The notes under the pieces: model-generated
The model's input: only the letters and a program-made list of their open reading frames with translations
Databases searched by the model: none
What the model was told of the DNA's origin: nothing
Program-made: the position numbers and the translations under genes
Origin: Gammaproteobacteria bacterium
GTDB lineage: Bacteria; Pseudomonadota; Gammaproteobacteria; Ga0077536
Direction of reading: 5' to 3'
Assembly: GCA_020849475.1 (NCBI GenBank)
Contig: JADLGE010000034.1
Span: 21,286-85,285, forward strand
DNA: 64,000 bases
In this document: piece after piece, positions 1,079 to 46,358 of the stretch
Layout: every line of letters begins with the position of its first letter
How positions within the stretch are numbered: position 1 is the first letter of the stretch

Positions 1079-1084
1079 GGGAGC

Positions 1085-3090: not shown

Positions 3091-3107
3091 GGCGAGTCTC
3101 CTTCACA

Positions 3108-4187: not shown

Positions 4188-4236
4188 GGCGTATTTCCGA
4201 AGTGGGTATGGTGCGTGGGGTAGCAGGCGGCGCGAC

Positions 4237-26585: not shown

Positions 26586-26587
26586 TC

Positions 26588-26959
26588 ATGGCCAAGCACT
26601 CCGTCGCAATCACCGAATATCTCGAGATCGATCTGGATGCCGAGCGCTGGCACTGCCGGCGCTGCGGCCACGACATCGGCTCGGCCCGTTCACCTTATAA
26701 AGAAGGGCTGTTGGTCTACGAGCGCGACCCGCGCGAAATCCATCGGCCGATACTGGATCCGGACAAATACGAGTTTACTTACGCGCCCGACCCGAGCTGG
26801 TGCCGCATCATCGAATTCTATTGCCCAAGCTGCGGCACGATGATGGAAAACGAATATCTGCCACCGGGCCATCCTTTGACCAACGATATCGAACTCGACA
26901 TCGACAAGTTGAAGCAACGTCACGCACAAGGGGAGGGGAAGAGCGATGCGGCGGGTTAG
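26588..26959 (+). CDS. Acetone/acetophenone-carboxylase gamma-type small Zn-ribbon subunit (123 aa)
   Basis: Four Cys fall in two pairs (WHCRRCGH ... FYCPSCG). LEIDLDAERWHC...REIHRPILDPDKYEF...EFYCPSCGTMMENEYLPPGHP matches the Acetone_carb_G-type pattern. Confidence 0.75.
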   Translation: MAKHSVAITEYLEIDLDAERWHCRRCGHDIGSARSPYKEGLLVYERDPREIHRPILDPDKYEFTYAPDPSWCRIIEFYCPSCGTMMENEYLPPGHPLTNDIELDIDKLKQRHAQGEGKSDAAG

Positions 26960-29072: not shown

Positions 29073-29105
29073 AACAACTGAAGGTCCCGCGCGGGAGGAT
29101 TAGAC

Positions 29106-31340: not shown

Positions 31341-31380
31341 CAGGCAAGCGCCGCCCGCGGGCGGCAAGGCGGATAGGGCG

Positions 31381-32190
31381 ATGGCGACAGGACTGCTGAA
31401 AACCTGGCTGGCGCAGCGTGATTCAACGCTGCGCTGGATTGAATTCGAGGCCTATGCGCGTCGCGTGTTCGCCAACAATCCTGCTGATTGGTACCGCGAC
31501 CCGGTGCGTTATGCAGCGACCTTGATTCAAGCCCAGGGCGTGGTCGGCAGTCACTGCGTGAGTATCGACATCACCGCACCGTTCATGGCGGCGCACGATG
31601 GTGGCGAACTGCCTGCGCTGTTCGCCGCGAGTGCGCCCTTCGACTTCGTCAGCGAAGCTTTGAACGCCTTGACGCACCGCTTTGAGGGGCGCCTCGACTT
31701 GGTGTTGAAGATGACTGCGCCGTGGGATCTGCTGGGCGGCGGCGACGACGCCTCGTTCGATGCAATGGACGACCTCGGTACGGCGCTCGCGGCCTGCATG
31801 CGGCGTTTCTCTGACCGGCCGGTCGCCGGACTGCTGCTGGAAACGGCGCGTATCGAAACGCTGTCCGCCGACGAAATCGATGCCTACGAACCTTTGGTCA
31901 GCGCCGCTCGCCACTACGGGTGGGTGACGGCCATGGCCCTGCCTGCTGACCGCCACGGCGCAGTGGCGTCGGTGGGGCTCGATCTCGATGTATTGCTGTG
32001 GCCGCAACTGGCGCTCGACGCGATTCCTGCCGCTGGCGGCAAGCCGGCCCACGGCGGTGGGCTGAATGACGATGTGTGGTCGGCTGCCGCGGTAGTGCCC
32101 ACAGGCGCGCAAGCGCTGCTCTACGGCGTCATTCCCGCGACTGCCACCCCCGAAACCATCATCTCAATCACCGGCGCGTTCAAAGCCTGA
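31381..32190 (+). CDS. Hypothetical 269-aa protein, fifth gene of the carboxylase cluster
   Basis: ATG at 31381 lies 41 nt after the HyuB stop. Codon usage is GC3-rich and I recognised no domain. The 3' end overlaps the convergent TetR gene by 27 nt. Confidence 0.55.
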   Translation: MATGLLKTWLAQRDSTLRWIEFEAYARRVFANNPADWYRDPVRYAATLIQAQGVVGSHCVSIDITAPFMAAHDGGELPALFAASAPFDFVSEALNALTHRFEGRLDLVLKMTAPWDLLGGGDDASFDAMDDLGTALAACMRRFSDRPVAGLLLETARIETLSADEIDAYEPLVSAARHYGWVTAMALPADRHGAVASVGLDLDVLLWPQLALDAIPAAGGKPAHGGGLNDDVWSAAAVVPTGAQALLYGVIPATATPETIISITGAFKA

Positions 32191-32826
32191 GGCCTCGCGT
32201 CGGCTGACAGTCTCCCGGGCGTGCTCGTCGAACGGCGTCAAGGCCGCCAGCAGCATGCTGTACAACTCGTCGAAAGCCTCTGAGATCGTCAGATCGGTCG
32301 ACTCGTAGAAGTCCGGTTCGCGCAGGCGATTGATGCTTGCGAAAACCACTTCCGCCACGAACGCTGGCGGTATCTCACGGAACACGCCGGCGCGGGTGCC
32401 GCTGTCGATCAGTTTCGAGAGCCCTTCGACACGTAGCCGCACATGGTCTTGCCAGATGGCGCGGGCCGGCGGCCAGCGATGGATGTCCGTGACCGTCGTG
32501 GCGCTCAGATTTTCGGCGGCGCGCACGCCGGCCTGGAGGTAGGCGTAGATGCGCTGCTGGGCATCGGACGCGTGCTCGCATGCGTTCGCCGCATCGCGTC
32601 GAATGCGCGCAAAAAAGCGTTGCAGTACCAGTAGCACCAGTTCCCGTTTACTCGGCGCAAGCTCGTAGAGCGTTCGCTTCGAACAACTCAGGCGGGTGGC
32701 GATCTCCGACACGCCGAGGTCGGCGAATCCTTCGCGCAACACCATGTCCTCGAGCGCGTCAAGCAGTTCACAGCCGCGTTTGCTCAGCGTGACCGGCAGC
32801 GTCGTTGATAGCGGAGTAGTAGACAC
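32164..32826 (-). CDS. TetR-family transcriptional regulator
   Basis: The HTH region is LREGFADLGVSEIATRLSCSKRTLYELAPSKRELV, followed by a helical ligand domain. There is no in-frame ATG upstream of the HTH, so I chose GTG at 32826 (residue 151 of the 370-aa track ORF). The start is uncertain. Confidence 0.7.
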   Translation of the reverse strand: MSTTPLSTTLPVTLSKRGCELLDALEDMVLREGFADLGVSEIATRLSCSKRTLYELAPSKRELVLLVLQRFFARIRRDAANACEHASDAQQRIYAYLQAGVRAAENLSATTVTDIHRWPPARAIWQDHVRLRVEGLSKLIDSGTRAGVFREIPPAFVAEVVFASINRLREPDFYESTDLTISEAFDELYSMLLAALTPFDEHARETVSRREASGFERAGD

Positions 32827-33410: not shown

Positions 33411-34475
33411 ATGAACAAGCTCATTCGTTCTTGCCGTCGTTACGCATCGCTGGCGGCTGTTCTGTCCTGCTCCGCCATGCTGGCCATGCCAGCCCTGGCC
33501 GAAGAGGCGCCGGCCGCAGCAGCGCCGGAAGCAGCCGCCCAGGAGCAGCCCGCCGCTGACCAGACCGTTGAAGTGGTGCGCACCGGCATTCCGCATGACG
33601 CGCTGTTTGCACTGGACATGAAGGGCCCGTGGGGTCTCGCCGTCGGCAACTTCGGCCTCATGCTCGAGACCAAGGACGCTGGCGCCAAATGGGAAACCTT
33701 GCCGGCCAAGACCTCACTCGGCTTGCTCGGCGCCAAGCGCGCCGGTGACCACCAGGTGGTGGTCGGTCAGCAGGGTCTGGTCATGACCCGCAACGGCGAC
33801 GGCGAATGGACCGAAGTGAAGAGCGGCTTCGACAAGCGTCTGCTCAACGTCGACATGAACGAAGCTGGCCTCGCCGTCACCGTCGGTGAATTCGGTTTCG
33901 TCGGGCGTTCCAAGGACTTCGGTGCGACCTGGGAACCGGTCACCATCAACTGGTCCGATTTCAACAATGAAGGCTACGAGCCGCACCTGTACGGCGTCAT
34001 CGTCACCGCCGAGGGTGCGATCATGGTGGCCGGCGAGTTCGGCCTGATCCTGCGCTCCGATGACGGCGGCGACACCTGGCACGTGGTTAACAAGGGTGAA
34101 GAATCGATTTTCTACATGGCGTTGGCGCGCGACGGCAGCAATTCCGGTTACGCGGTTGGCCAGGAAGGCTTGATTCTCAAGACCACCGACGGTGGTGCGA
34201 CCTGGGCCCGCATCAAGGCGGACACCAATGCCAACCTGTTGGGCGTGTGGTCGGGCAATGGCGAGGTCGTGATTGTCGGCATCCGCCAGATGCTTCGCAG
34301 CAGCGATGATGGCGCGACCTTCAGCACCTCGACGGACGTCGGCATCGTGCGCACCTGGTTCCAGGGCATCGCCGCGGGCGTGTCCGAAACCAAGGCCGGT
34401 GAGAAGGGTTTCCTGCGCCAGCAGAACGTCTTCGTGGCAGGCTATCGCGGCACCATCGCGCGCGTCGTGAAGTAA
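33411..34475 (+). CDS. Secreted BNR/Asp-box beta-propeller (YCF48 / photosystem-II-assembly-factor-like)
   Basis: Signal peptide ...SAMLAMPALAEE. Repeated Asp-box motifs are present: KDAGAKW, KDFGATW, DDGGDTW, TDGGATW, SDDGATF. Confidence 0.8.
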   Translation: MNKLIRSCRRYASLAAVLSCSAMLAMPALAEEAPAAAAPEAAAQEQPAADQTVEVVRTGIPHDALFALDMKGPWGLAVGNFGLMLETKDAGAKWETLPAKTSLGLLGAKRAGDHQVVVGQQGLVMTRNGDGEWTEVKSGFDKRLLNVDMNEAGLAVTVGEFGFVGRSKDFGATWEPVTINWSDFNNEGYEPHLYGVIVTAEGAIMVAGEFGLILRSDDGGDTWHVVNKGEESIFYMALARDGSNSGYAVGQEGLILKTTDGGATWARIKADTNANLLGVWSGNGEVVIVGIRQMLRSSDDGATFSTSTDVGIVRTWFQGIAAGVSETKAGEKGFLRQQNVFVAGYRGTIARVVK

Positions 34476-34848: not shown

Positions 34849-37134
34849 GTGAAGAAACAAACAATCGCCAGGGTTCTGATGGCGGGAGGCATGGCCGGTG
34901 GCGTTCTGTTCGCCGGGACAGCCTCTGCCATCGACTGGAACATCACCGGTTTCGTCCGTCAGGAAATTGCCTACAGCCTGAACTCGGACGGCAATCCCAA
35001 CAACACGATGGACGACGTGTTCAACGATCGCATCACGCCGAACGTCACGCACGTGAACTACGGCAGCGCGGCGTCAACCGCCGCCGTGACCGCGGCCAAC
35101 CCTGAGCTGTACCTGCCCGGCGCAGGCTTCTCGAACTTCCGCGCGCGCGCTCATGCCGACCATGCCGGCCCGGGCGTCACTGCCGTTGGCGGCGAGCTGT
35201 TCTCGCTGGCCGGTGCGGAGACCAGCTCGCCGGTCGACTGCCAGTTCAGCCAGCAGCGCGCCATCGCCTCCGGCTCCGCCGGTCGCGGACCGAACATCGG
35301 TGGATTTGCCACGTTCCCGGGCGCTCTCTGCCCTGGCGGCGGTGGCTCCCCGCAGGCCGGAGGCAACCAGTTTGCCAAGGCCGGTCTGGTGCCGAACGGC
35401 GACTTCTCGCTGAAGAACAATGATTCGTTGAACTTCAACATGTTCAACTCGCGTCTCGAGTTCGACGTCCAGGCGAAGATCAGCGACGAGTTCTCCGCTT
35501 ACGTGAAGACCCGCGTGTACTACGACGGTACGCGTCATTTCACCGACGGCAAGATTGGTGACAGCTTCGGTCCCGGCCAGTCGGGCAGCGGCGTGTGGAG
35601 TCATCGCCGCAACACCCTGCTGGAATACAACACCCCTGACGCCATCCTGGATTTGCCGGCGTTCTACCTGGACTGGAATCGTGGCCCACTGTGGGTGCGC
35701 GTAGGCAACCAGGTCATCGCCTGGGGTGAAGCCTACTTCTTCCGCACCATGGACGTGGCCAACGGCCTCGACCTGCGTCGCCATCTGACCCTTGGCCCGG
35801 GCGCCGAGGAATACCAGGACCAGCGTATTGCCTCGCCGGGCGTGCGTCTGTCCTACACCTTCAGCAACGGCTTTGAACTCGATGCGTTCGCGCAGATGTT
35901 CTCGCCGACCCTGCTGCCGGGTCAGAACACGCCTTACAACCTCGTCAACGATGACGTCTACGTCAACGAATCGGCGGGTTTCAAGGATGCACGTGGTTCG
36001 ATGAACTTCGGTGCGCGCATGACCATGCCGATCACCGAGCAGCTGACCGCGATCGTGGGCGTCGTCAATCGTCGCAATCCCGATGGCGTGCTGCGCAACG
36101 TCGATGCGCCGAGCTACTGGGACGGTCACATCAACACCGGTTGCGTGAATCAGTTCAACGATACGCTGAACTTCCTGAACGGTGGCAAGGGTCTGCAGGG
36201 TGCCGCGGCATTCGGCTTCCCGACTTTCGACAAGCGTGCGCGCACCATGGAGAACGGTTGCGGTTCGGCGTTCTCGCCTGATCACAACGCCGCAAGCTCG
36301 ATCAACTACTGGTCGAACATTGCTTCGGGTCGTATCGACAACGGCAATTACCTGCGTCACATCATCAACGACTTCCCGGCTTCCAAGTGGGCGGTCCGCA
36401 ATATTTTCAATTTCGGCGACGAAATGAATTTTGTGGATTCGATGCGCACGCTGGAAGGTTTCCGTTCGTCCTTCGGACCGTTCACGCAGTGGGTTGGCCG
36501 CGAGTTCAAGCGTGAAACCATCGCCATGGTCGGCGGCAACTACGTGGTCGAATCGGAAAATGAACTGCTTGACCAGTTGATCATCCGTGGTGAAGTTTCG
36601 GTGACGCCGAACAAGCGCCTGACCACCGACCTGTCGTGGGATTACAAGGAAGTCACCGACGTGGTGTCGGCCTTGATCCTCGAGAAGTACATGCGCTTCT
36701 CCGAAGCATTCCCGGCCACCTACATGGTGTTCCAGTGGATGCATCGCACGTCGACCGACATGTTCGGCCGCGATCTGGACAAGAACAACATGCCGACCAT
36801 CGGCCACTTCATCGATTCGAAGACCGGCGCCTTCAAGCCCGCGGCTTTCGATCCTGAAGAACTCAAGCCGCGCGGCAGCGACAATGCCGACTACGTGGTG
36901 TTCGCGTTCCAGCAGCCGTTCCCGAACCTGATCTGGCGCTTTGACATGTCCCTGCTGATCGACACTGCCGGTGGTTACCTGATCCAGCCGGGTGTCCGCT
37001 ACCGTCCGTCCGCCAACTGGCAGTGGGATGTGTACGCGACGGTCATCGCTTCGCCGGGTGGTACCAACGACACCATCACCGAGACGCTCGACTTCGCCGA
37101 CGAAATGTTCGTCCGCGCGACCTACTTCTTCTAA
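34849..37134 (+). CDS. DUF1302-family outer-membrane beta-barrel protein, copy 1
   Basis: GTG at 34849 follows GAGGAGAG. The signal is VKKQTIARVLMAGGMAGGVLFAGTASA. The conserved core is AFYLDWNRGPLWVRVGNQVIAWGEAYFFRTMDV, and the protein ends in an aromatic residue (...RATYFF), as is typical of OM barrels. Confidence 0.8.
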   Translation: MKKQTIARVLMAGGMAGGVLFAGTASAIDWNITGFVRQEIAYSLNSDGNPNNTMDDVFNDRITPNVTHVNYGSAASTAAVTAANPELYLPGAGFSNFRARAHADHAGPGVTAVGGELFSLAGAETSSPVDCQFSQQRAIASGSAGRGPNIGGFATFPGALCPGGGGSPQAGGNQFAKAGLVPNGDFSLKNNDSLNFNMFNSRLEFDVQAKISDEFSAYVKTRVYYDGTRHFTDGKIGDSFGPGQSGSGVWSHRRNTLLEYNTPDAILDLPAFYLDWNRGPLWVRVGNQVIAWGEAYFFRTMDVANGLDLRRHLTLGPGAEEYQDQRIASPGVRLSYTFSNGFELDAFAQMFSPTLLPGQNTPYNLVNDDVYVNESAGFKDARGSMNFGARMTMPITEQLTAIVGVVNRRNPDGVLRNVDAPSYWDGHINTGCVNQFNDTLNFLNGGKGLQGAAAFGFPTFDKRARTMENGCGSAFSPDHNAASSINYWSNIASGRIDNGNYLRHIINDFPASKWAVRNIFNFGDEMNFVDSMRTLEGFRSSFGPFTQWVGREFKRETIAMVGGNYVVESENELLDQLIIRGEVSVTPNKRLTTDLSWDYKEVTDVVSALILEKYMRFSEAFPATYMVFQWMHRTSTDMFGRDLDKNNMPTIGHFIDSKTGAFKPAAFDPEELKPRGSDNADYVVFAFQQPFPNLIWRFDMSLLIDTAGGYLIQPGVRYRPSANWQWDVYATVIASPGGTNDTITETLDFADEMFVRATYFF

Positions 37135-37154
37135 GGAAGTCCGTCGAGTTGCTG

Positions 37155-37185
37155 AAGAGCCGGCCCAGTGCCGGCTCTTTTTTTT
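37155..37185 (+). terminator. Rho-independent terminator after DUF1302 copy 1
   Basis: AAGAGCCGGC-CCAGT-GCCGGCTCTT forms a 10-bp stem, followed by a run of T's (to 37185). It begins about 20 nt after TAA at 37134. Confidence 0.85.
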
Positions 37186-37574
37186 GGGGCGCCGCCGACT
37201 CCGGCAGGCACGCCCAAACCCCGCCCTTCATCCACCCCGAAAGTGCTCCATTCGACCGCTGGCTGACAGCATTCGACTTCCGCCTTGCCCGTCGCCGCAG
37301 GCAACGCAACATTTCGCGTTCTTCACATTCTTGCGCCCGCTCAGCGGCTTAAGACGTTACTCCCGCAATGCACCAAAAATTGCAGCTCCCAGAGTACGGT
37401 TTTCCAACCCCTACGCCACCGTATTCGCCGAGCACCCAACCCCCTTTGGGGAGTGCGCGAAAGGTCAATTCGGGGAGCTGATTTGTGGCCTGATCTGTCC
37501 ATCGCTGTTGTGTCCTTGCAACAACAACAGGCTATGGCGGGTCGGCCGATGTTCGTCCCAACTCGCGAAAATGA

Positions 37575-37727: not shown

Positions 37728-40105
37728 GTGAAGAAATACACAATCGCCCAATATCTGATGGCCGGAGGCATGGTCGGCGGCGTACTGTTCGCCGATACCG
37801 CATCCGCCATCGATTGGAATATCACGGGTTTCGTCAGACAAGAAATTGCCTATAGCCTGAATTCGGACGGCAATCCGAACAACGACATGGACAACCCGTT
37901 CAATGATCGGATCCAGCCCAACATCACGCATCACGAATTCGGTAGCAAGACCACGCCGACAGCCAATCCGGGTGATTATTTCCCGACCATGGATGCCGTT
38001 GGTCTCGTGCCGTTTCCGGCAGGCCAGGCCGCGGGCTCCAACGCTCGCGCCCATGCGCATACTTATTGGGGGCAAAAGACCGACGGCACAGATCTGGTGC
38101 CGGCGCCCGTCGGCCCCAACCCGCTTGGCATCAGCCTGAACACGGAGTTCATGACCGCGGGTAACAACACCAACTCGCCAGTTGATTGCCATTACAGCCA
38201 ACTGCGCGCACTTGCCGCCGGATCGCCCGGTATCGGCGCAAACGTAGGCGCCGTCAACGGTATCCCCAACCCGGCCGGCATCCCGATCTTTCCGGGCGCA
38301 CTGTGCCCCGGCGGCGGCGGTTCGAACTTCATTCCGGGTGCGAAGAACAACGCCAAGGGCAGCATCGTGCCGCCCGGCGATATCGCGTTGAACGACGAGG
38401 ACAGCCTCGATTTCAACCTCTTCAACTCCCGCCTTGAGTTCGACGTCCAAGCCAAGATCAGCGACGAGTTCTCGGCCTATGTCAAAACTCGTATCTACTA
38501 CGACGGTACGCGCCACTTCACCGACGGCAAGATCGGTGACAGCTTTGGTCCCGGCCGTTGGGGTGCTGGCATGTGGAGCAGCCGTCGTCAGACCCTGCTC
38601 GAAGCCAACACGCCTGATGCGATCCTCGACCTGCCGGCGTTCTATCTCGACTGGAACCGCGGCCCGCTGTGGGTGCGTGTGGGTAACCAGGTCATCGCCT
38701 GGGGTGAAGCCTACTTCTTCCGTACCATGGACGTGGCCAACGGCCTCGATCTGCGTCGTCACCTGACCTTGGGGCCGGGCGCCGAAGAGTACCAGGATCA
38801 GCGCGTTGCCTCGCCGGGCGTGCGTCTGTCCTATACCTTCAGCAACGGCTTTGAGCTCGATGCGTTCGCGCAGATGTTCTCGCCGACCATTCTGCCGGCG
38901 CAGAACACCGCTTATAACTTGATTCCCACCTATGGTGCGCGTGTCAACGACGAAGCCGGCTATCACGACGCTCGCGGTTCGATGAACTTCGGTGCGCGCA
39001 TGACCATGCCGATCACCGAGCAGTTGACCGGTATCATCGGTGTGGTGAATCGTCGTAACCAGGACGGTGTGTTCCGTAACGTTGACGCCCCGGCGGCCAA
39101 CAACGGTCGCATCAACACCGGTTGCGTCAACCAGTACAACGACACCCTGAACTTCCTGGGTGGTGCTGGCGCCGCGGCGGCCGTGGGTTTCCCGACCCTC
39201 GACACGCGCATGCGCAGCATGGAGAACGGTTGCGGTTCGACCTTCGCGCCGGACCCGACGGGCACTCCGTCGTTGCAGTACTGGAAGACCATCCAGAGCG
39301 CGCGTCTCAACAACCAGAACTATCTGCGTCACGTTATCGATGATTTCCCGGCCGCCAAGTGGGCCGTGCGTAACATCTTCAACTTCGGTGACGAGCAGAA
39401 CTTCGTTGATACCTATCGCACCCTGGAAGGTTTCCGCTCCTCGTTCGGTCCGTTCATCCAGTGGGTGGGCCGCGAGTTCAAGCGCGAAAACGTGTTCATG
39501 GTGGGTGGCAACTATGTCGTCAACTCGGAAAATCCGCTGCTCGACCAGTTGATCATCCGTGGTGAAGTGTCGGTGACCCCGAACAAGCGCATCACCCATG
39601 ACCTCGAGTTCAAGTACAAGGAAGTGGATGACATCGTGTCTTCCATGATCTTGGAGAAGTACTACCGCTTCTCCGATGCGTTCCCGGCCACCTACATGGT
39701 GTTCCAGTGGATGCACCGTACGGCGACCGACATGTTCGGTCGTGACCTCGACAACAACAACACCCCTGGCATCGAAAACTTCATCGATGGCAAGACCGGC
39801 CAGTTCCTGCCGGCAGCCTTCGAGAAGGGCGCGATGGATCCCAGGGCAGCCCGATGGCCGACTACGTCGTGTTCGCCTTCCAGCAGCCGTTCCCGAACCT
39901 GATCTGGCGCCTCGACATGGCGGTGCTGATCGATACCGCGGGCGGTTACCTGGTGCAGCCGGGTGTGCGCTACCGTCCGTCTGCCAAGTGGCAGTGGGAC
40001 GTCTACGCGACTGTCATTGGCTCGCCGGGCGGTAACAACGACACCATCACCGAGACCCTCGATTTCGCAGACGAAATGTTCGTCCGCGCGACCTACTTCT
40101 TCTAA
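37728..40105 (+). pseudogene. DUF1302-family outer-membrane protein, copy 2, interrupted by a -1 frameshift in a G-run (39844-39846)
   Basis: GTG at 37728 has the same GAGGAGAG context as copy 1. ORF 37674..39902 carries the N-terminal ~700 aa. The conserved C-terminus (ADYVVFAFQQPFPNLIW...DEMFVRATYFF) is in ORF 39854..40105 in another frame. Restoring one G (GGG to GGGG) gives ...DPRGSPMADYVVF, matching copy 1 ...KPRGSDNADYVVF. Confidence 0.75.
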
Positions 40106-40125: not shown

Positions 40126-40156
40126 AAGAGCCGGCCCAGTGCCGGCTCTTTTTTTT
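40126..40156 (+). terminator. Rho-independent terminator after DUF1302 copy 2
   Basis: The stem-loop AAGAGCCGGC-CCAGT-GCCGGCTCTT plus T-run is identical to the one at 37155-37185. Confidence 0.85.
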
Positions 40157-40479
40157 GGCGCCCGTAAAGCCACGTGGATGAATGCTGAGCAGAGCACCTC
40201 GATGCCGCACTGCACTCAACTTCCCAAGCTGCCACTCTTTGCTATCATGCCGAACATACCCGAAGGGCGGGGCATGCTGCGGGAGAATGGAATGCATGCG
40301 CCGTCATTGCGGTCAAACCTTATAACAACAGCCGAGCGGACCACGACTCAGCAGGCGTCCATGAGCTCTTCAGCGCACCATTCCCGTGTGGCCAACCTTT
40401 GGCAGTCGATGCCGACAGTGGAGACATTCACGGTGGGCGCACATCGCCGCGTCGTCCGGCAAGCCGCGAATACCCTGTA

Positions 40480-41625
40480 ATGGAACGCGGCCGCCGTATC
40501 GTCCTGTGGGTATGCTTTCTGGCGTTCTCCGCGATTATTCACGCCATCGTGTCGGGCGGTGTCGGTCACCAGATCGAGCGCAATCTCGGGCTCGTCACGC
40601 CCGAAGAGAAAATTGAAATCAAGGTGCCGCCGGCGCCACAGAAACTGGTCGAGCGCGAACCGCCGCCGGAAGATGAACTCGAGTTCGAGAAAGAACTGGA
40701 ACTCGAACCGCCGGAGGTGCTCATCGCGCCCAAGGCCGTGGCGCCACCGCCGCCCAATGTCACGGTCGCCTTGAAAGCCCAGGCCGGCGGCGCGGGCGGA
40801 GATGAAAATGCCGAGGGCACGCCGCAGATCCAGATAGCGGGCGGTTTGAGTCTCGGCGCGATTCCCGGTACCGCCGGCAGTGGCTTCGGGGGTTTCAAAT
40901 CCGGCATAGGCAACGGCTTCGGCGACGGCACTTCGCGCTTCGCGGCCTATATTTCCGGCCTGCGTGAAGCGGGCCTCGACGTGGTGTTCTGTGTCGATGC
41001 CACCGGCTCCATGGGCTGGGTGCTGGCGGAGGTCAAAGACCGCATTGAAGATATCGCCAAGTTCGTGCGCACGCTGGTGCCCATCGCGCGCTTCGGCTTC
41101 GTCGCCTATCGCGACACCGACAATCCCGAATTCACCACCCGCGTGCAGCCGCTGACCTACAGCAGCACCAAGCTCAATCGTTTCCTCGGTGCTTTGAAAG
41201 CCGATGGTGGCGGTGACTGGTATGAAGCGGTGGACGAAGGCATACGCGCCGCCATCGATGAATCGGGTTGGCGGCCGGGCGCGCGCAGAATCATCATCGT
41301 CATCGGCGATGCGCCGATGCGTGAAGGGCAGGTCAAGAAGGTCGCGCGCCTGATCGGCAACTTCAAACACAACGGTGGCACCTTGTCGGCGCTCGATGTC
41401 AGCGACCAGGCCAATCCCCATTTGCTCGAAGCTAAACTCGGACGCGCCGTGCCGCGCGAGATGTATCGCAACGCACCGATGGCCGACTGGCTGGTGCTCG
41501 GCGAGGCGGGCGGCGGCGATACCGCCACGCTCGACGGCGACACCAAGCTCACACGGCGCCTGGTCAAGCTCATCATGGGCGACCAGTTCGCAAATGAAAT
41601 GCAAGCGCTGCTGGACGTCTTATGA
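40480..41625 (+). CDS. Inner-membrane-anchored periplasmic vWA (von Willebrand factor A) domain protein with Pro/Glu-rich spacer
   Basis: ATG at 40480. The N-terminus MERGRRIVLWVCFLAFSAIIHAIV is positive-inside with one TM. The spacer is VPPAPQKLVEREPPPEDELEFEKELELEPPEV...APPPPN, followed by a Gly-rich tract. The vWA domain has the MIDAS-like VVFCVDATGSM, GGGDWYEA and IIIVIGDAP motifs. Confidence 0.75.
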   Translation: MERGRRIVLWVCFLAFSAIIHAIVSGGVGHQIERNLGLVTPEEKIEIKVPPAPQKLVEREPPPEDELEFEKELELEPPEVLIAPKAVAPPPPNVTVALKAQAGGAGGDENAEGTPQIQIAGGLSLGAIPGTAGSGFGGFKSGIGNGFGDGTSRFAAYISGLREAGLDVVFCVDATGSMGWVLAEVKDRIEDIAKFVRTLVPIARFGFVAYRDTDNPEFTTRVQPLTYSSTKLNRFLGALKADGGGDWYEAVDEGIRAAIDESGWRPGARRIIIVIGDAPMREGQVKKVARLIGNFKHNGGTLSALDVSDQANPHLLEAKLGRAVPREMYRNAPMADWLVLGEAGGGDTATLDGDTKLTRRLVKLIMGDQFANEMQALLDVL

Positions 41626-43892
41626 GCAGGCTCAAGTTCATGAATGCCGTGCGTCCGCTGTGCGTGCTGGTCATGCTCGGGCTGTTCGCACCTGCACAGG
41701 CCGCCGACAAGGCAGTGGCGGCGACGCCCGCCACTGCCGTCATCAATCCGGCCACCGACATGGCCAAGCTCGCGGCCCTGGTCGCGCGACTGCAGGCCGC
41801 CAGCGCCGGCTCCGAGGAATACGCCGCGGTCGCCAACGAAGTCGGGCCGGTGGTGGATGAGTTACGTCAGGCGGGCCTCGATGCCAAGCAACTCGATGCC
41901 ATTCGGCGCCAGCTCGAACAGATGCGCGTACTGGCCGATCAGCGTCTCGATCAATACGAAGCCGCTACCAACGAAAACGAAGGCGCACTCGAAAACATGT
42001 ATCGCTCGCGCGTGTGGGACGACATGAGTTTCGCGCTCGCGGCATTCCCGTATTGGCGCGCGTGGATCGATCTTGAACTCGCGCGCATGGTGAACGGCCA
42101 GGGCGAGAAGAGCCAAGCCTTGAAGCCCGCCCGAGACGGTTTCAAAGCGGCCTCGGTGCAGCTGTTCAAACCTGGCCTCGTGTATGGCGGCTGGTTGGGC
42201 CTGGGCTATGTCGAGCTCGAAGGTGGACGTAAGGACCGCGCCAAGGAAATCTTCAAGAAGCTCGAAGAAGCCCTCGCCAGCGAACCGGATTCACCGGTGC
42301 GACAGGCGGTCAGCATGGAGCTGCGCAATATCGACGCGAAGCAGGGTACGGTGTCGAGCTTCGCCAGCAAAGGCGGCAAATATTCAGACAACGATGCGCC
42401 GGTCATCAAGAACGAAGCTTTCGCCATGCTGCAGCAGAGTCGCAAGACCGGCGGGCGGCCGCTGGAAGCCGCCGCGCGTCTCAAGTCGCTCATCGATGCC
42501 GGCAAAATCGACGACCAGTTGCTGAGTAACATGATGACTTACGCGCAGGAGCTGTCGGGCGTCGACGTCGGCCCCTATACCGACCTCGCCGGCGCCGAGT
42601 TCGCGATGGCCAACGAGCATTGGTATAACGCGATGCAGAAATACGCGGCCTTCTTCAAGGCCGTGCAGCCGCCGCCCGATCTCGATCTCAACAACTACCG
42701 ATATCGCTGGGCGCTGGCCGCCTACAAGAGCGACATCTTCGAGCCGGCCATCGATGTGCTGAACAAGCTGCTGGCCCAACCGCGTCTTTCAGGCGAACTG
42801 GATGAAGCGGGTTCCAAGCTGCTGTACGCCATCTATGCCACCCGTGAGCAGAAGGGTGGCTCGCAGGCCAATCACCAGAAGCTGCGGGAAGCGGCGGCGC
42901 GCTTTGTATCACGCAGCCCGCACGATCCGGCCGCCGATGCGGCGCGGCTCATGATTGCGCAGACGGCCACCAGCGCCGGTGCGGCCTTGCAGCAGCTCGG
43001 GCAGGCGAGTTCGGCCGAGGCCAAGGCCCAAATCGGACGCACCGCTTTCGGCATCATCGCTCGGGATTTCAGCACCGCGGTCGCGCGCGGCAAAACCGCG
43101 CAGGGCGCCGGTCTCGCGCGACAAGGCATCGATGCATGGCAGACGCTGCCGGCCGAAGACAAGAAAGACCAGTTCAATTTCGCCGTGCTGCTGGAAATGC
43201 GCGCGCTGGTCGACCCCGAGCCCGATGCGGTATTGAAGGCGCTCGACCAGATTGAACAGAAGGGCAAGCTCAACAACGACATCGAACGCGCGCTGGTGTG
43301 GTCGCGTCTGCAGCTGCTCGACCGCATGAAAGATCCGGCCAGGAGCGAGGCCTATGTGCGCAAGCTCGCCGGCAGCGGCATCCCGGCCTGGCAGGTCGAA
43401 TATCTCTATCCATGGATCAAGGATGGCAAGGACGTCGAGCAGCGCATGAAGCTCGCGACGCTGGTGCGCCCGGCGGTCAAGGACCAACCTGAGATGGACC
43501 GTCGCTTTGCGATGTTGATCATCGAAGACCTGTTGGTCAAAAAGGACGCCACCGGCGCCAACGAACAGGCGCGCGCATTCTTGAAGCAGTATCCGAAATC
43601 CGGCGATGCCTGGCGCCTGGTGGCGCGCAGCTCGGAAGCGGTCAACCAGCCGTTCGAAGCCGACCGTGCATGGAATGTCATCACCGACAAGGCCGTGCCG
43701 ACCATGCCCATCTGGTGGGAAGGCATGTTGAGTCGGGTGCGCATTCGCACCCAGTCCAATCGCCCTGACGAAGCCTGTCCCTTGCTCAAACAGTTGCTGA
43801 AACAGCAGCAATACGTGCCGGCGGACTTCAAGGACGAATTCAATGCGGCGCGCGGCAGCGCACGGTGCGCGACCGCGCAGGCGGCAAATTGA
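41622..43892 (+). CDS. Secreted 756-aa all-helical (TPR-like) repeat protein, no recognisable family
   Basis: Signal MSRLKFMNAVRPLCVLVMLGLFAPAQA. The composition is helical-repeat throughout. It shares an ATGA overlap with the vWA gene. Confidence 0.7.
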   Translation: MSRLKFMNAVRPLCVLVMLGLFAPAQAADKAVAATPATAVINPATDMAKLAALVARLQAASAGSEEYAAVANEVGPVVDELRQAGLDAKQLDAIRRQLEQMRVLADQRLDQYEAATNENEGALENMYRSRVWDDMSFALAAFPYWRAWIDLELARMVNGQGEKSQALKPARDGFKAASVQLFKPGLVYGGWLGLGYVELEGGRKDRAKEIFKKLEEALASEPDSPVRQAVSMELRNIDAKQGTVSSFASKGGKYSDNDAPVIKNEAFAMLQQSRKTGGRPLEAAARLKSLIDAGKIDDQLLSNMMTYAQELSGVDVGPYTDLAGAEFAMANEHWYNAMQKYAAFFKAVQPPPDLDLNNYRYRWALAAYKSDIFEPAIDVLNKLLAQPRLSGELDEAGSKLLYAIYATREQKGGSQANHQKLREAAARFVSRSPHDPAADAARLMIAQTATSAGAALQQLGQASSAEAKAQIGRTAFGIIARDFSTAVARGKTAQGAGLARQGIDAWQTLPAEDKKDQFNFAVLLEMRALVDPEPDAVLKALDQIEQKGKLNNDIERALVWSRLQLLDRMKDPARSEAYVRKLAGSGIPAWQVEYLYPWIKDGKDVEQRMKLATLVRPAVKDQPEMDRRFAMLIIEDLLVKKDATGANEQARAFLKQYPKSGDAWRLVARSSEAVNQPFEADRAWNVITDKAVPTMPIWWEGMLSRVRIRTQSNRPDEACPLLKQLLKQQQYVPADFKDEFNAARGSARCATAQAAN

Positions 43893-43902
43893 GAGCACTA
43901 TC

Positions 43903-44886
43903 GTGAAAGGCAAGACCCCCGTCGCGCTGCTGACCGGATTTCTGGGCAGCGGCAAAACCACGCTCCTGTCGCGGGTGCTGGCCCAGGGCGGCTTCAAGGA
44001 CACCGCCGTCATCGTCAACGAGTTTGGCGAAGTCAGTATCGATCACCTGGTGGTGGCCGACCTGGCGGAAAACATCCTCGAGCTGCGCGACGGCTGTCTG
44101 TGCTGCACCATCCGCGGCGATCTGGCGATGACGCTGCGCGATCTCAACCGCCGTCGTTACCTCGAAGAGATACCCCATTTCAGCCGCGTGATCGTCGAAA
44201 CCACCGGCCTCGCCGATCCGGTGCCGCTGGTGCATACCATGATGGCCAACGCACCGATTCAAAGCGCCTACCGGCTCGATGCCGTGGTGTGCGTGGTCGA
44301 CGGTGAACATGGTCTGGCGACGCTCGCCGAACATGACACCGCGCAAGACCAGGTGGCGATGGCCGACATCCTTGTCATCAGCAAAATCGACATTGCGAGC
44401 CGCGAGAACGTGGCGTCATTGCGCGCGAGGCTGGCCGCCATCAATGTTGGCGCCGAAGTCGTGGAGGTGGCGAATGGCGATATCGACGCCACCCATCTGT
44501 TTGGCCGCTCGCTGTTTCAGCCCGGCGCACGCGATGAGGCGCTGGCGCGCTGGATGGCCAATGAGCATGCCCATCACGACCATGGCGCGCGCTATGGCGC
44601 CCATGTCATTCGACACGATGGCGTGTTGAGTCTGGCGGGCACCAGTGTGTTTCTCAATCGCATCGTCAACGAGATGAAAGATGACATCCTGCGCATCAAG
44701 GGCATCGCTGCCTTCCGTGAAAAAGGCGGCAAGCCGGCCGTGATGCATGCGGTGCAGAACAAATTCTACCCGGTCAGCTACCTTGAAGACTGGCCGGACG
44801 ACGATCACACGAGTCGCCTGGTGTTCATCGGGCGCCATCTCAACACACAACGTATCGACGAATTATTCGCGGCACTGTGTGTCTGA
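43903..44886 (+). CDS. COG0523 (CobW/ZigA/YeiR-type) G3E-family metallochaperone GTPase
   Basis: GTG at 43903 lies 10 nt after the upstream stop. The P-loop is LLTGFLGSGKTTLL, the CxCC metal motif is GCLCCTIRGD, ETTGLADP is switch-like, ISKID matches NKxD, and there is a His-rich stretch NEHAHHDHGARYGAH. Confidence 0.85.
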   Translation: MKGKTPVALLTGFLGSGKTTLLSRVLAQGGFKDTAVIVNEFGEVSIDHLVVADLAENILELRDGCLCCTIRGDLAMTLRDLNRRRYLEEIPHFSRVIVETTGLADPVPLVHTMMANAPIQSAYRLDAVVCVVDGEHGLATLAEHDTAQDQVAMADILVISKIDIASRENVASLRARLAAINVGAEVVEVANGDIDATHLFGRSLFQPGARDEALARWMANEHAHHDHGARYGAHVIRHDGVLSLAGTSVFLNRIVNEMKDDILRIKGIAAFREKGGKPAVMHAVQNKFYPVSYLEDWPDDDHTSRLVFIGRHLNTQRIDELFAALCV

Positions 44887-44917
44887 ACGCCGTCAACCGG
44901 CATTGAGGGAATACGCC

Positions 44918-46300
44918 ATGGCACACATTCGCAAATACACCGCCGACTACAGCCGCCGCAAATTTCTCGAGCAGACCGCCGCCGGTTTCTTCGGCGCAGG
45001 TGTGCTGGCGCCGGTGTGGAGCACCGCCGCCGAGAACGGCGACTTCACCAAGTCCTATCCCGCTGAACTGCTGTCCATCGAGGACTACACCAAGGGCGCG
45101 CTCAAAGCCGGCGACATCATCGACGCCAACAATGTCGACCTCGTGCAGGATCTCATCGACGGCGTGCGCTACATGCAGATCAAGCAGATGGGCCGCAAGA
45201 TCGAGTTGGTGCCATCCACCACCGAGATGACCAAGCTGAGTCCGGTCGAATACATCGAGGCAACCCTGCGCAACAAGGGCGTGGCGAAGTTCGACGCCGA
45301 TGGCAATGTGGTGACGCAGGACGGCAAGCCGTGGATAGGCGGCAATCCGTTTCCCGAGCCGACCAATGGCCTTGAGATCTTCGCCGGCGTCACCCTGAGC
45401 TGGGGCCGGCATGATGTGTCCTTCTACCCGGTCAAGAGCTTCGAGCTCGATGTCACTGGCAAGGTGCTCTACAACTACGAACTCGCGTGGTGTGAATTCG
45501 CGCCGACCGGACGTGTGGTGGTCGACCCCAAGCCCTATTGGCCCGGACATGAAGACCGGCTGCGTTACCAGTCGGTGTTCTTCACCATTCCCAATGACTA
45601 CAAGGGCACTTCGTTTCTCAACAGCTGGTATTACGACCAGCGCAAGTTTCCCGATCTGGACGGCTACCTGCCGCAGTTCAAGCGCGTGCGAAAATTCCCG
45701 ACCAACCAGCGTTTCGAGCCTTTGATTCCAGGTTCGAGCCTGTATCTGTCCGACGCCTGGACGGCGGGCGATCCGTATCTCACCTGGGGCAACTACAAGA
45801 TTATCGGCCGTGCGCCGTTCCTTGCGGGCCTGACCGAGAACTGGGATTCGGACGATGAGAACTGGGAAGGCAAGACCCACGGCGGGCCACTGGGCTCGAC
45901 GTTCTGGGACACCAAGGTCGAGCTCATTCCCGAAACCATCATCGTCGAGGCCGAGCCTACCGGCTACGCCCGTGCGCCCATCAGCAAAAAACGCGTGTGG
46001 TTCGATGCGCGCACCGGTCTGCCGGTATGCATGGTGACCTACGACCGCCGCGGCGAAATGTTCAAGTCCTTCGACGGCGCCTATTCGTTGTACGACAACA
46101 AGGGCAAGCAGGTCATGGACGGCGCCAACCCCTATTGGTCATGGACCCACGTGCACGCCCACGACGTGCAGACCAACCGCATGACGCGCCTGAAGCAGGT
46201 CAAGCGCATTGCTGGCGGTTACGAAATGTTCGTCAACCAGGGCGTCGAGGTGTACGACAAGTACCTGACCGTCGCGGCGTTGCGGCGCTTGGGAACCTGA
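44918..46300 (+). CDS. DUF1329-family (LolA-like, outer-membrane lipoprotein-sorting-fold) protein with twin-arginine leader
   Basis: ATG at 44918 follows GAGGGA. The leader MAHIRKYTADYSRRKFLEQTAAGFFGAGVLAPVWS carries the SRRxFLx Tat motif. The DUF1329 core includes GGNPFPEPTNGLEI. Confidence 0.8.
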   Translation: MAHIRKYTADYSRRKFLEQTAAGFFGAGVLAPVWSTAAENGDFTKSYPAELLSIEDYTKGALKAGDIIDANNVDLVQDLIDGVRYMQIKQMGRKIELVPSTTEMTKLSPVEYIEATLRNKGVAKFDADGNVVTQDGKPWIGGNPFPEPTNGLEIFAGVTLSWGRHDVSFYPVKSFELDVTGKVLYNYELAWCEFAPTGRVVVDPKPYWPGHEDRLRYQSVFFTIPNDYKGTSFLNSWYYDQRKFPDLDGYLPQFKRVRKFPTNQRFEPLIPGSSLYLSDAWTAGDPYLTWGNYKIIGRAPFLAGLTENWDSDDENWEGKTHGGPLGSTFWDTKVELIPETIIVEAEPTGYARAPISKKRVWFDARTGLPVCMVTYDRRGEMFKSFDGAYSLYDNKGKQVMDGANPYWSWTHVHAHDVQTNRMTRLKQVKRIAGGYEMFVNQGVEVYDKYLTVAALRRLGT

Positions 46301-46324
46301 CACGACGAAGCGCAGGCCTGGAAT

Positions 46325-46342
46325 GTGCGAATGACTTTGCAC
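46325..46342. repeat. Family-A REP copy
   Basis: GTGCGAATGACTTTGCAC flanked by GAAT...ATTC, between the convergent DUF1329 and uup genes. Confidence 0.65.
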
Positions 46343-46358
46343 ATTCAACGGGCCGAAC

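What the first reader, a model, noticed from the sequence alone, without database searches (positions are those of the whole stretch)
40480..46300. vWA / TPR-like / COG0523 GTPase module inserted between the DUF1302 barrels and a Tat-leader DUF1329: candidate undescribed envelope-spanning system
Seen in sequence: four co-directional genes are packed as one apparent operon, with an ATGA overlap at 41622-41625, a 10-nt gap at 43893-43902 and a 31-nt gap at 44887-44917. The first product is an inner-membrane-anchored protein whose periplasmic part is a Pro/Glu-rich spacer (VPPAPQKLVEREPPPEDELEFEKELELEPPEV...APPPPN, reminiscent of the TonB spacer) followed by a vWA domain with a MIDAS-like DATGSM. 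The second is a 756-aa secreted all-helical repeat protein with no family I can name. The third is a cytoplasmic COG0523 metallochaperone GTPase (GSGKTT, CLCC, His-rich loop). The fourth is a DUF1329 (LolA-fold) protein. Directly upstream on the same strand are a BNR propeller and two DUF1302 OM barrels. From memory, DUF1302 and DUF1329 normally travel together, often with a BNR/YCF48-like protein and an RND/HAE3-type exporter, and have been linked to use of hydrophobic esters and alkanes. Here no RND partner is visible in the window, and the vWA/helical/GTPase trio sits where it would be. vWA plus TPR membrane proteins are otherwise known from Bat/MoxR-type operons, but no MoxR AAA+ gene is present. 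Inference: the set could form one OM-periplasm-IM assembly, with the barrel, LolA-like carrier and propeller as OM and periplasmic components, the helical protein as scaffold and the vWA protein as IM tether. The GTPase would replace MoxR as the nucleotide-driven or metal-inserting component.
Basis: partly seen in the sequence, partly recalled or inferred. Interest (0 to 1): 0.7.

Follow-up and report, generated by a model that had tools for sequence, protein, structure and literature searches.

The report
TonB-like vWA transducer in DUF1302/DUF1329 cluster
The vWA protein and its 756-aa helical partner are the TonB-like arm and the TPR scaffold of a proton-motor module that, in about 60 related genomes, sits inside the poorly understood DUF1302/DUF1329/BNR/RND envelope gene cluster. 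This window holds a reduced copy that has lost the motor and RND genes, and the GTPase is an optional extra rather than the engine.

Summary

The vWA and 756-aa (HEL) genes are an obligate pair: vWA lies directly upstream of HEL in 58 of 59 loci. They are linked to DUF1302 (31/36), BNR (29/33) and DUF1329 (32/38) down to 35% identity, and also in remote, rearranged relatives.

The trio does not stand in for the RND pump, and the GTPase is not the energiser. Most relatives carry RND–BNR–DUF1302–ExbB–ExbD–ExbD–vWA–HEL–[acyl-CoA-ligase-like]–[COG0523]–DUF1329.

The vWA protein has a transmembrane helix with invariant Ser17 and His21, a strand-like segment, a Pro/acidic linker and a vWA head. This is the architecture of the "vWA motor-driven force transducers" predicted in 2025 (PMC12204202), whose function is unknown.

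COG0523 is present in only 18 of 38 loci.

In the window's lineage the RND gene is gone and a second, frameshifted DUF1302 occupies the motor position. The remaining genes are still under purifying selection (dN/dS 0.03–0.3).

The new element is the link between the two systems. It implies PMF-driven force acting on a porin-like barrel and a LolA-like carrier.

The parts
33411..34475 (+). BNR / Ycf48-like beta-propeller, secreted. This is the AmeC-type component.
   Evidence: Pfam PSII_BNR 1.4e-16 and BNR. Found upstream of the cluster in 29/33 relatives.
34849..37134 (+). DUF1302a outer-membrane barrel. The ORF opens at 34774; the likely start is GTG 34849.
   Evidence: Pfam DUF1302 7.8e-22. 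AF2 model has pLDDT 82 and pTM 0.79: a porin-like barrel with two large inserts. Foldseek finds MOMP, OmpF, chitoporin and AlgE, with no TBDT or plug.
37154..37186 (+). Intrinsic terminator after DUF1302a.
   Evidence: 11-bp stem with 7 GC pairs, followed by a T-run.
37728..40105 (+). DUF1302b, a second barrel copy, frameshifted at about 39842-39851. It lies where relatives carry exbB-exbD-exbD.
   Evidence: tblastn with DUF1302a matches residues 12-702 in one frame (69% id) and 700-786 in another (88.5% id). Pfam DUF1302 3e-21. Relatives' gene order.
40126..40157 (+). Intrinsic terminator after DUF1302b. Its sequence is the same as the one after DUF1302a.
   Evidence: AAGAGCCGGC-CCAGT-GCCGGCTCTT followed by T8, read. 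Conserved in 6 of 7 relatives aligned.
40221..40248 (+). Promoter-like site of the four-gene unit (TTCCCA, 16 nt, TG-n-TATCAT).
   Evidence: Found by the scan. The block CTTTGcTATcATGCC is invariant across 7 related loci.
40480..41625 (+). vWA force-transducer-like protein, 381 aa. Layout: transmembrane helix (res. 7-28, S17/H21), strand-like segment (~44-49), Pro/acidic linker with the conserved PPPEDxLEFExELELEPP...PPPP (61-92), Gly-rich segment, vWA domain (~165-345, DATGSM).
   Evidence: Pfam VWA_4, VWA and VWA_2. S17 and H21 are invariant in 55 and in 20 sequences. It lies directly upstream of HEL in 58/59 loci. dN/dS 0.06-0.17.
41622..43892 (+). HEL: a secreted 756-aa all-alpha TPR-like solenoid, the obligate partner of the vWA protein.
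   Evidence: AF2 pLDDT 86.7 with 38 helices. Foldseek gives only generic TPR solenoids at TM ~0.2. The family has 145 representatives among 1.84 billion proteins. C719 and C749 are invariant.
43903..44886 (+). COG0523 GTPase (YjiA-like), an accessory gene always placed just upstream of DUF1329.
   Evidence: Pfam cobW 3e-49 and CobW_C 1.4e-17. NCBIfam scores are below every equivalog cut-off. Present in 18/38 loci: 18/32 with DUF1329 and 0/6 without.
44918..46300 (+). DUF1329 (LolA-like), with a twin-arginine leader.
   Evidence: Pfam DUF1329 2.8e-55 and LolA_like. An RR leader is present in 42/46 orthologues whether or not COG0523 is present. dN/dS 0.03-0.12.
46321..46347 (.). Hairpin between the convergent DUF1329 and ABC-F genes. 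It marks the end of the unit.
   Evidence: GAATGTGC...GCACATTC, read.
32164..32760 (-). TetR-family regulator, divergent from the cluster. It lies where relatives carry the HAE3 RND gene.
   Evidence: Pfam TetR_N and TetR_C_27. L066 has the same layout. The RND gene occupies this position in L067 and 24/30 loci.

Best explanation
The vWA protein is a TonB/TolA-type periplasmic force transducer whose C-terminal head is a vWA domain instead of a TonB C-terminal domain. The 756-aa protein is its dedicated periplasmic TPR-like scaffold.

In the ancestral and still most common arrangement, both genes are co-transcribed with an ExbB-like pentamer gene and two unlike ExbD-like genes, which encode a proton-driven 5:2 motor. 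The whole module is embedded in an AmeABCD-type cluster: HAE3 RND pump, BNR propeller, DUF1302 porin-like barrel and LolA-like DUF1329.

Inferred mechanism:
- The motor docks on the Ser17/His21 face of the transducer helix.
- The Pro/acidic linker spans the periplasm, probably held by the TPR scaffold.
- The vWA head (DxTxS metal site) grips an acidic residue on an outer-membrane-proximal partner, either DUF1329 or the DUF1302 barrel.
- Proton-motive force can therefore drive a step in moving a hydrophobic substrate through a barrel that has no TonB plug.
- I favour uptake of a hydrophobic carbon source.

The window holds a reduced derivative. The RND gene has been replaced by a TetR gene, and the three motor genes by a duplicated, now frameshifted DUF1302. 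The retained vWA–HEL–COG0523–DUF1329 operon is still under selection, so it must borrow a motor encoded elsewhere.

COG0523 is a facultative cytoplasmic accessory tied to DUF1329. It may metallate DUF1329 before Tat export. It is not the engine.
For: Shown:
- Gene order RND–BNR–DUF1302–ExbB–ExbD–ExbD–vWA–HEL–(AMP-ligase)–(COG0523)–DUF1329 across 65 species-level genomes. Counts are 58/59, 40/48, 31/36, 29/33, 24/30 and 32/38.
- The linkage recurs in remote HEL relatives with different gene orders: L072, L075, and L077 with another LolA-like gene.
- S17 and H21 are invariant. A strand-like segment follows the transmembrane helix. The linker motif is conserved and the vWA head matches Pfam.
- ExbD1 keeps the transmembrane Asp and ExbD2 has Asn, so the pair is heterologous. 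ExbB keeps the LGTVxGM and TTAxGL motifs.
- The same architecture and synteny (TPR, tolQ-like, two tolR-like genes) is described as a new class of vWA force transducers of unknown function in PMC12204202.
- dN/dS is 0.03-0.31 for all cluster genes within the motor-less clade.
- The barrel is porin-like, not a TBDT.
- In 11/38 loci an AMP-binding ligase sits inside the operon. Acetone-carboxylase-like genes are syntenic.
- DUF1302/DUF1329 mutants fail on Tween 20, butyl stearate and monoterpenes (10.1101/2020.07.04.188060, PMC6394551).

Inferred: the physical contacts, the direction of transport, trans-energisation in the window's organism, and the role of COG0523.
Against: - No motor or RND gene lies in the window, so the key energising parts are absent from the sequence actually under study.
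- The motor/vWA/HEL module also occurs alone (L068), and bare vWA–HEL pairs occur in unrelated contexts (L043, L052, L063, L074). The link to DUF1302/DUF1329 is therefore frequent but not obligatory.
- The Ser/His spacing is S-x3-H-x3-S. The Leu and Ser of the canonical SHLS motif were not matched.
- No complex was modelled.
- AmeABCD has been interpreted as an exporter, so the direction of transport is open.
- The Tat leader on DUF1329 is kept where COG0523 is absent (18 loci). This weakens the metallation idea.
Confidence: 0.68

Rival explanations
1. A Bat/MoxR-like vWA–TPR membrane assembly in which the COG0523 GTPase replaces MoxR as the nucleotide-driven or metal-inserting engine, and the trio substitutes for the missing RND pump.
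For: The window has no RND, MoxR or motor gene. COG0523 sits inside the operon and is under purifying selection. All six motor-less loci that carry DUF1329 also carry COG0523.
Against: COG0523 is absent from 20/38 loci that keep vWA–HEL, and it co-occurs with ExbBD in many others. It is cytoplasmic, whereas the vWA head and HEL are periplasmic. RND and the trio coexist in 24/30 loci. No MoxR or DUF58 gene appears in any locus. The six motor-less loci represent only about 2-3 independent events.
Confidence: 0.05
2. Two independent systems that are merely neighbours. The ExbBD–vWA–HEL module does something of its own, such as envelope tethering or adhesion. The DUF1302/DUF1329/BNR/RND system works without it, and the co-location reflects shared regulation or inheritance in one gammaproteobacterial lineage.
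For: Stand-alone modules and pairs exist (L068, L043, L052, L063, L074). Classical DUF1302/DUF1329 clusters in Pseudomonas, Shewanella and Castellaniella lack the module. Terminators separate the barrels from the vWA unit in the window.
Against: DUF1329 is transcribed in the same tight unit, downstream of HEL, so the module is inserted between two genes of the four-gene system. The linkage survives to 35% identity and reappears in rearranged form in remote relatives (L072, L075), and with a different LolA-like protein in L077. The family is small and nearly always in this context.
Confidence: 0.17
3. In this window the vWA–HEL genes are decaying leftovers of a system that stopped working when the motor and RND genes were lost.
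For: The motor and RND genes are missing. The DUF1302 copy that replaced the motor is frameshifted.
Against: The reading frames are intact. All family-invariant residues are kept (S17, H21, DATGSM, C719/C749). dN/dS is 0.06-0.22 against four motor-less relatives at dS about 0.8-1.8. The promoter-like block is conserved.
Confidence: 0.07

Closest known systems
vWA motor-driven force transducers (TolQ-like + two TolR-like + TMH-linker-vWA + TPR), predicted in 'Origin and Evolution of Bacterial Periplasmic Force Transducers', Mol Biol Evol 2025 (PMC12204202)
   Same: Three-domain layout: a transmembrane helix with conserved Ser/His, a disordered Pro-rich linker with a strand after the helix, and a vWA head. 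An adjacent TPR gene. In relatives, one ExbB/TolQ-like gene and two unlike ExbD/TolR-like genes.
   Different: Here the module is embedded in a DUF1302/DUF1329/BNR/HAE3-RND cluster, a context the paper does not mention; it states the function is unknown. The gene order puts the TPR gene after vWA. The window's own copy lacks the motor genes. Sequence homology to the paper's Tichowtungia exemplar was not tested.
AmeABCD-type four-component system: DUF1302 barrel, DUF1329 LolA-like protein, BNR/COG4447 propeller, HAE3 RND (Castellaniella AmeABCD; Shewanella Sama_1588-1591; P. putida PP_0765/0766 with PP_2018/2019)
   Same: DUF1302, DUF1329 and BNR are all present and co-directional. Relatives also carry the HAE3 RND gene. 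The genomic setting includes catabolic genes for hydrophobic substrates.
   Different: The window has no RND gene. The barrels are about 760 aa against about 600. DUF1329 carries a Tat leader. Five extra genes (motor, transducer, scaffold) lie between DUF1302 and DUF1329 in relatives, with an optional COG0523 and an optional acyl-CoA ligase.
TonB–ExbB–ExbD with TonB-dependent transporters, and TolQRA–Pal
   Same: An inner-membrane anchor helix with Ser-x3-His, a proline-rich periplasmic spacer, and a 5:2 proton motor encoded alongside (in relatives).
   Different: There is no TonB/TolA C-terminal domain. The associated barrel is porin-like, with no plug or TonB box. The motor scores far below the ExbB/TolQ equivalog cut-offs.
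Bat/MoxR aerotolerance-type vWA–TPR operons
   Same: Membrane-anchored vWA proteins encoded next to TPR proteins.
   Different: No MoxR AAA+ gene and no DUF58 gene. The transmembrane helix carries motor-docking residues, and a proton motor is the conserved neighbour.
PflA/PflB periplasmic TPR scaffold of the Campylobacter flagellar motor (PDB 9hmf)
   Same: A large periplasmic TPR solenoid associated with a MotA/ExbB-class stator. It is among the best bacterial Foldseek hits for HEL.
   Different: TM-score is only about 0.2, which is generic solenoid similarity. There is no sequence relationship and no flagellar context.

Membership tests
vWA motor-driven force transducers (PMC12204202) | N-terminal transmembrane helix with the motor-binding Ser/His of the SHLS motif | tested here: met
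   S17 and H21 are invariant in 55 locus-derived and 20 database sequences. The continuation is S-x3-H-x3-S rather than the canonical Leu/Ser spacing.
vWA motor-driven force transducers (PMC12204202) | Disordered, proline-rich linker with a beta-strand 'motor box' just after the transmembrane helix | tested here: inconclusive
   An alternating hydrophobic segment (IEIKV, IVID, IHITL, VVIEV) precedes the PP-rich spacer in all members. P89-P92 are invariant. No structure was predicted for this protein.
vWA motor-driven force transducers (PMC12204202) | C-terminal vWA fold in place of the TonB/TolA C-terminal domain | tested here: met
   Pfam VWA_4 6e-10, VWA 2e-8 and VWA_2 1e-7, with no TonB_C hit. 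D173, A174 and T175 of DATGSM are invariant.
vWA motor-driven force transducers (PMC12204202) | Synteny with one tolQ/exbB-like and two heterologous tolR/exbD-like genes | tested here: not met
   Absent from the whole 64-kb window. Present directly upstream of the orthologue in 40/48 related loci, with an Asp/Asn ExbD pair.
vWA motor-driven force transducers (PMC12204202) | Co-occurring TPR gene | tested here: met
   HEL is adjacent in 58/59 loci and folds as a TPR-like solenoid.
vWA motor-driven force transducers (PMC12204202) | Sequence homology to the published exemplars (Tichowtungia family) | not tested
AmeABCD-type DUF1302/DUF1329/BNR/HAE3-RND system | DUF1302 outer-membrane barrel | tested here: met
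   Two copies, Pfam 8e-22 and 3e-21. The model is a porin-like barrel.
AmeABCD-type DUF1302/DUF1329/BNR/HAE3-RND system | DUF1329 LolA-like periplasmic protein | tested here: met
   Pfam DUF1329 3e-55 and LolA_like 6e-8.
AmeABCD-type DUF1302/DUF1329/BNR/HAE3-RND system | BNR/COG4447 propeller | tested here: met
   Pfam PSII_BNR 1.4e-16.
AmeABCD-type DUF1302/DUF1329/BNR/HAE3-RND system | HAE3-family RND (MMPL) pump in the cluster | tested here: not met
   No MMPL or ACR_tran ORF and no tblastn hit in the window. Present in 24/30 relatives with enough upstream sequence.
Bat/MoxR vWA–TPR operon | MoxR AAA+ ATPase and DUF58 genes adjacent to the vWA genes | tested here: not met
   Neither was seen in the window or in the annotated relatives.
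TonB-dependent transport system | TonB C-terminal domain and a 22-strand plugged receptor | tested here: not met
   No TonB_C domain. The DUF1302 model matches 16-18-strand porins and AlgE, not TBDTs.
COG0523 metallochaperone GTPases | cobW P-loop domain, CxCC motif and CobW_C domain | tested here: met
   Pfam 3e-49 and 1.4e-17. C65, C67 and C68 are invariant. Scores are below the cut-offs for YjiA, CobW and ZigA equivalogs.

The most novel reading that the evidence does not exclude
A third kind of Ton/Tol-like machine. A proton-driven ExbB–ExbD1–ExbD2 motor pulls, through a vWA-headed transducer held by a dedicated TPR scaffold, on a LolA-like carrier (DUF1329) or a plug-less porin-like barrel (DUF1302). 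This would move hydrophobic molecules across the outer membrane, and it would give both the orphan vWA transducers and the DUF1302/DUF1329 system their missing mechanism. In the window's lineage the transducer works without its own motor, by hijacking another motor of the cell.
Probability: 0.3. Interest if true: 0.8.

Novelty: new variant of a known kind. Interest (0 to 1): 0.58.

Why it matters
There are two open problems. Nobody knows what the recently predicted vWA force transducers do. Nobody knows how the widespread DUF1302/DUF1329/BNR/RND system works; export of a cell-wall component, an esterase role and efflux have all been proposed.

Finding the two systems fused in one conserved cluster gives each a testable partner. 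It suggests that proton-motive force can be delivered to a porin-like barrel and a LolA-like carrier, not only to TonB-dependent receptors or Pal. The motor-less, RND-less version in this window is a natural reduction experiment, showing which parts are kept when the energy modules are removed.

Tried and rejected
1. Correlation between the Tat leader on DUF1329 and the presence of COG0523. There is none: the RR leader is present in 24 loci with COG0523 and in 18 without it.
2. A plug or TonB-box-type feature in the DUF1302 barrel. The AF2 model and Foldseek show a porin/AlgE-like barrel with two large inserts, and no TBDT similarity.
3. A named family for HEL. Pfam gives only a sub-threshold TPR_6 hit, NCBIfam gives nothing, and Foldseek gives only generic TPR solenoids at TM about 0.2.
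4. Assigning COG0523 to the CobW, ZigA or YjiA equivalogs. All scores are below the cut-offs.
5. ExbB, ExbD or RND elsewhere in the window. None was found by tblastn or by Pfam on nearly all ORFs of at least 100 aa.
6. 'COG0523 compensates for motor loss.' All six motor-less loci with DUF1329 have COG0523, but they amount to only about 2-3 independent events, so this was not pursued.
7. A Zur-type or other obvious operator in 40157-40479. Only the promoter-like block and the terminator are conserved.
8. Searching the complete chromosome of a motor-less relative (OZ257136.1) for a motor elsewhere.


Full report
**1. Observation**

The region reads as the first-stage reader described.
- The vWA gene runs from ATG 40480 to TGA 41625. 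Its stop overlaps the start of the 756-aa gene (HEL, 41622-43892) in ATGA.
- A 10-nt gap precedes a GTG-started COG0523 gene (43903-44886).
- A 31-nt gap precedes DUF1329 (44918-46300). DUF1329 opens with a twin-arginine leader (YSRRKFLE).

Pfam confirms the domain assignments: VWA_4/VWA/VWA_2, cobW with CobW_C, and DUF1329 with LolA_like. Upstream it finds a BNR/Ycf48-like propeller and two DUF1302 genes. HEL gets only a sub-threshold TPR_6 hit, and nothing in NCBIfam.

There are two refinements.
- The second DUF1302 is frameshifted at about 39842-39851.
- Both DUF1302 genes end in the same strong intrinsic terminator (37154-37186 and 40126-40157). The four-gene unit has its own promoter-like site at 40221-40248, and seven related loci conserve it.

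So the barrels and the vWA–HEL–COG0523–DUF1329 unit are separate transcription units.

**2. Neighbourhood test**

HEL has 96 database clusters at 35-100% identity. All are unnamed, and nearly all come from gammaproteobacterial MAGs. A profile of the family finds only 145 representatives among 1.84 billion proteins. HEL is therefore a small, specific family and not a generic TPR protein.

A scan of species-representative genomes returned 65 loci. tblastn with the window's proteins, and with proteins from a distant relative, shows a common gene order:

RND(HAE3/MMPL) – BNR – DUF1302 – ExbB – ExbD – ExbD – vWA – HEL – [AMP-binding ligase] – [COG0523] – DUF1329

The counts below use only loci with enough flanking sequence.

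| Feature | Loci |
|---|---|
| vWA directly upstream of HEL | 58/59 |
| ExbB plus both ExbD | 40/48 |
| DUF1302 | 31/36 |
| BNR | 29/33 |
| RND | 24/30 |
| DUF1329 downstream | 32/38 |
| COG0523 | 18/38 |
| AMP-binding ligase | 11/38 |

COG0523 always sits immediately before DUF1329. It is never present where DUF1329 is absent (0/6).

The linkage returns in remote HEL relatives that have other gene orders.
- L072: RND–DUF1329–BNR–DUF1302–ExbB–ExbD–ExbD–vWA–HEL.
- L075: vWA–HEL beside DUF1329, with a divergent DUF1302/RND/BNR set.
- L077: vWA–ExbB–ExbD–ExbD–HEL followed by a different LolA-like gene.

Exceptions exist.
- L068 has a stand-alone motor–vWA–HEL module.
- Bare vWA–HEL pairs occur as second copies in genomes that also hold a full cluster.

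**3. What the parts are**

*vWA protein.* It has a single N-terminal helix in which Ser17 and His21 are invariant. This is the Ser-x3-His signature by which TonB and TolA dock on ExbB/TolQ (PMC12204202). The rest of the protein follows this order:
- a short strand-like segment;
- a conserved Pro/acidic stretch, PPPEDxLEFExELELEPP…PPPP;
- a Gly-rich segment;
- a vWA domain with the conserved DATGSM.

*Motor genes in relatives.* They encode an ExbB-like protein with the usual transmembrane motifs, one ExbD with the transmembrane Asp, and one ExbD with Asn in its place.

*HEL.* It models confidently (pLDDT 86.7) as a 38-helix solenoid. Foldseek returns only generic TPR matches, including the periplasmic scaffold of the Campylobacter flagellar motor. 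Two invariant C-terminal cysteines fit a periplasmic location.

*DUF1302a.* It models (pLDDT 82, pTM 0.79) as a porin/AlgE-like barrel with two large inserts. It has no TonB-dependent-receptor features.

*COG0523.* It is YjiA-like but scores below every equivalog cut-off.

**4. What is known**

[quoted passage not shown] Its features are:
- a transmembrane helix with the SHLS motif;
- a disordered linker with a motor box;
- a vWA C-terminal domain;
- neighbouring genes for a TPR protein, a tolQ-like protein and two heterologous tolR-like proteins.

The paper states that their function is unknown. I found no follow-up.

Separately, DUF1302, DUF1329, BNR and an HAE3 RND pump form a cofit four-gene system whose mechanism is unresolved. 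The relevant results and proposals are:
- export of a cell-wall component (10.1101/072470);
- ester use in P. putida (10.1101/2020.07.04.188060);
- monoterpene tolerance as AmeABCD (PMC6394551);
- a predicted DUF1302–DUF1329 complex (PMC13499233).

None of these papers links the two systems.

**5. The window's version**

Downstream synteny (ABC-F, YCII, cyclophilin, YaaA) matches full clusters such as L070/L071, so this is the orthologous locus. The window's subclade (L001, L003-L006, L013/L066) differs from the full clusters in two ways.
- The RND gene is replaced by a divergent TetR gene.
- In the window and L005, a second DUF1302 copy takes the place of the three motor genes.

No ExbB, ExbD, TonB or HAE3 RND gene is present anywhere in the 64 kb.

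The remaining genes are still under purifying selection against four motor-less relatives. dN/dS is 0.06-0.17 for vWA, 0.09-0.22 for HEL, 0.09-0.21 for COG0523 and 0.03-0.12 for DUF1329. Ser17 and His21 are kept. The simplest reading is that the transducer is energised in trans by a motor encoded elsewhere. This has a precedent: TonB and TolA can use each other's motors (cited in PMC12204202).

**6. Mechanism, and how sure**

I commit to the following model, with confidence about 0.68 for the assignment.
- vWA–HEL is the force-transducing arm and scaffold of a proton-motor module.
- This module belongs functionally to the DUF1302/DUF1329/BNR/RND system.
- The vWA head binds an outer-membrane-proximal partner, most likely DUF1329 or the barrel.

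The direction of transport is less certain. I lean towards uptake of a hydrophobic carbon source, for three reasons:
- an acyl-CoA-ligase-like gene sits inside the operon in 11/38 loci;
- acetone-carboxylase-like genes are conserved next door;
- the published mutants show growth defects.

AmeABCD, however, was interpreted as an exporter.

COG0523 is an accessory tied to DUF1329. The Tat leader suggests that DUF1329 folds or is loaded in the cytoplasm. But the leader is just as conserved where COG0523 is absent, so the metallation idea remains speculative.

**7. Verdict**

The core intuition is supported: an envelope-spanning assembly with vWA as the inner-membrane tether and the helical protein as scaffold, linked to DUF1302 and DUF1329.

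The specific claims that the trio replaces the RND pump and that the GTPase replaces MoxR as the engine are not supported. The module itself was described in silico in 2025. What appears new is its systematic embedding in DUF1302/DUF1329 clusters, and the existence of motor-less, RND-less derivatives such as this one.

I classify it as a new variant of a known kind, with interest 0.58.

Noticed in passing
window 39842-39851 (DUF1302b, 37728-40105): The second DUF1302 gene changes reading frame about 87 codons before its end. The stretch CCCAGGGCAGCCCG could be a sequencing or assembly error, or the gene could be a recent pseudogene. L005 has an apparently intact second copy.
   Followed up: partly
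window 37154-37186 and 40126-40157; DUF1302a/b C-termini: Both DUF1302 copies are followed by the same terminator sequence. Their last 87 residues are 88.5% identical, against 69% for the rest. This suggests gene conversion, or a duplication boundary at the 3' end.
   Followed up: partly
window 24567-32190: An acetone/acetophenone-carboxylase-like set (Hydantoinase_A, Acetone_carb_G, Hydantoinase_A, Hydantoinase_B) is followed by a conserved ~270-aa protein with no family. The set stays syntenic with the cluster in distant relatives (L066, L067, L027-L033). In relatives the ~270-aa gene directly precedes the RND gene.
   Followed up: partly
L029, L032, L035-L038, L041, L042, L045, L046, L050, L057 (e.g. 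L038:12122-13681): A ~520-aa AMP-binding (acyl-CoA-ligase-like) gene is inserted between HEL and COG0523/DUF1329 in 11/38 loci. It points to activation of a carboxylic-acid substrate.
   Followed up: partly
L067:7912-8876; L068:9136-10011; L070:9194-10017: The two ExbD-like genes are unlike each other. One keeps the transmembrane Asp (TPLIDCVF) and the other has Asn (PMINIIF), which implies a heterodimeric stator plug.
   Followed up: partly
window, L001, L005, L006, L013, L034: Every locus that lacks ExbB/ExbD but keeps DUF1329 also has COG0523 (6/6, against roughly half elsewhere). This amounts to only about 2-3 independent events, so it may be chance.
   Followed up: partly
L043/L049, L052/L030, L063/L027: Some MAGs carry a second, stand-alone vWA–HEL pair (~36% identity) in an unrelated context, in addition to the full cluster. 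These are transducer/scaffold paralogues that may share one motor.
   Followed up: partly
window 40660-40755 (vWA residues 61-92): The 'spacer' is not free-evolving. PPPEDxLEFExELELEPP…PPPP is nearly invariant across the family, so it is likely a docking peptide, possibly for the TPR groove of HEL.
   Followed up: no
window 44918-45010 and orthologues: The DUF1329 subfamily has a conserved N-terminus, M-x-IRKY-x-x-D[YF]SRR-x-F. This is a twin-arginine leader with an unusually conserved n-region. Three His (H165, H321, H413) and many acidic residues are invariant in the mature part.
   Followed up: partly
window 53751-54683 (-): A secreted 310-aa protein has two Notch LNR domains (Pfam 9e-13), an uncommon domain in bacteria.
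   Followed up: no
window 2-4400 (-): A CusB-like membrane-fusion protein with a heavy-metal-binding domain lies at the left edge, next to two multicopper oxidases and a cytochrome c. This is a copper-handling locus. Any RND partner would lie just outside the window and would be unrelated to the HAE3 type.
   Followed up: no
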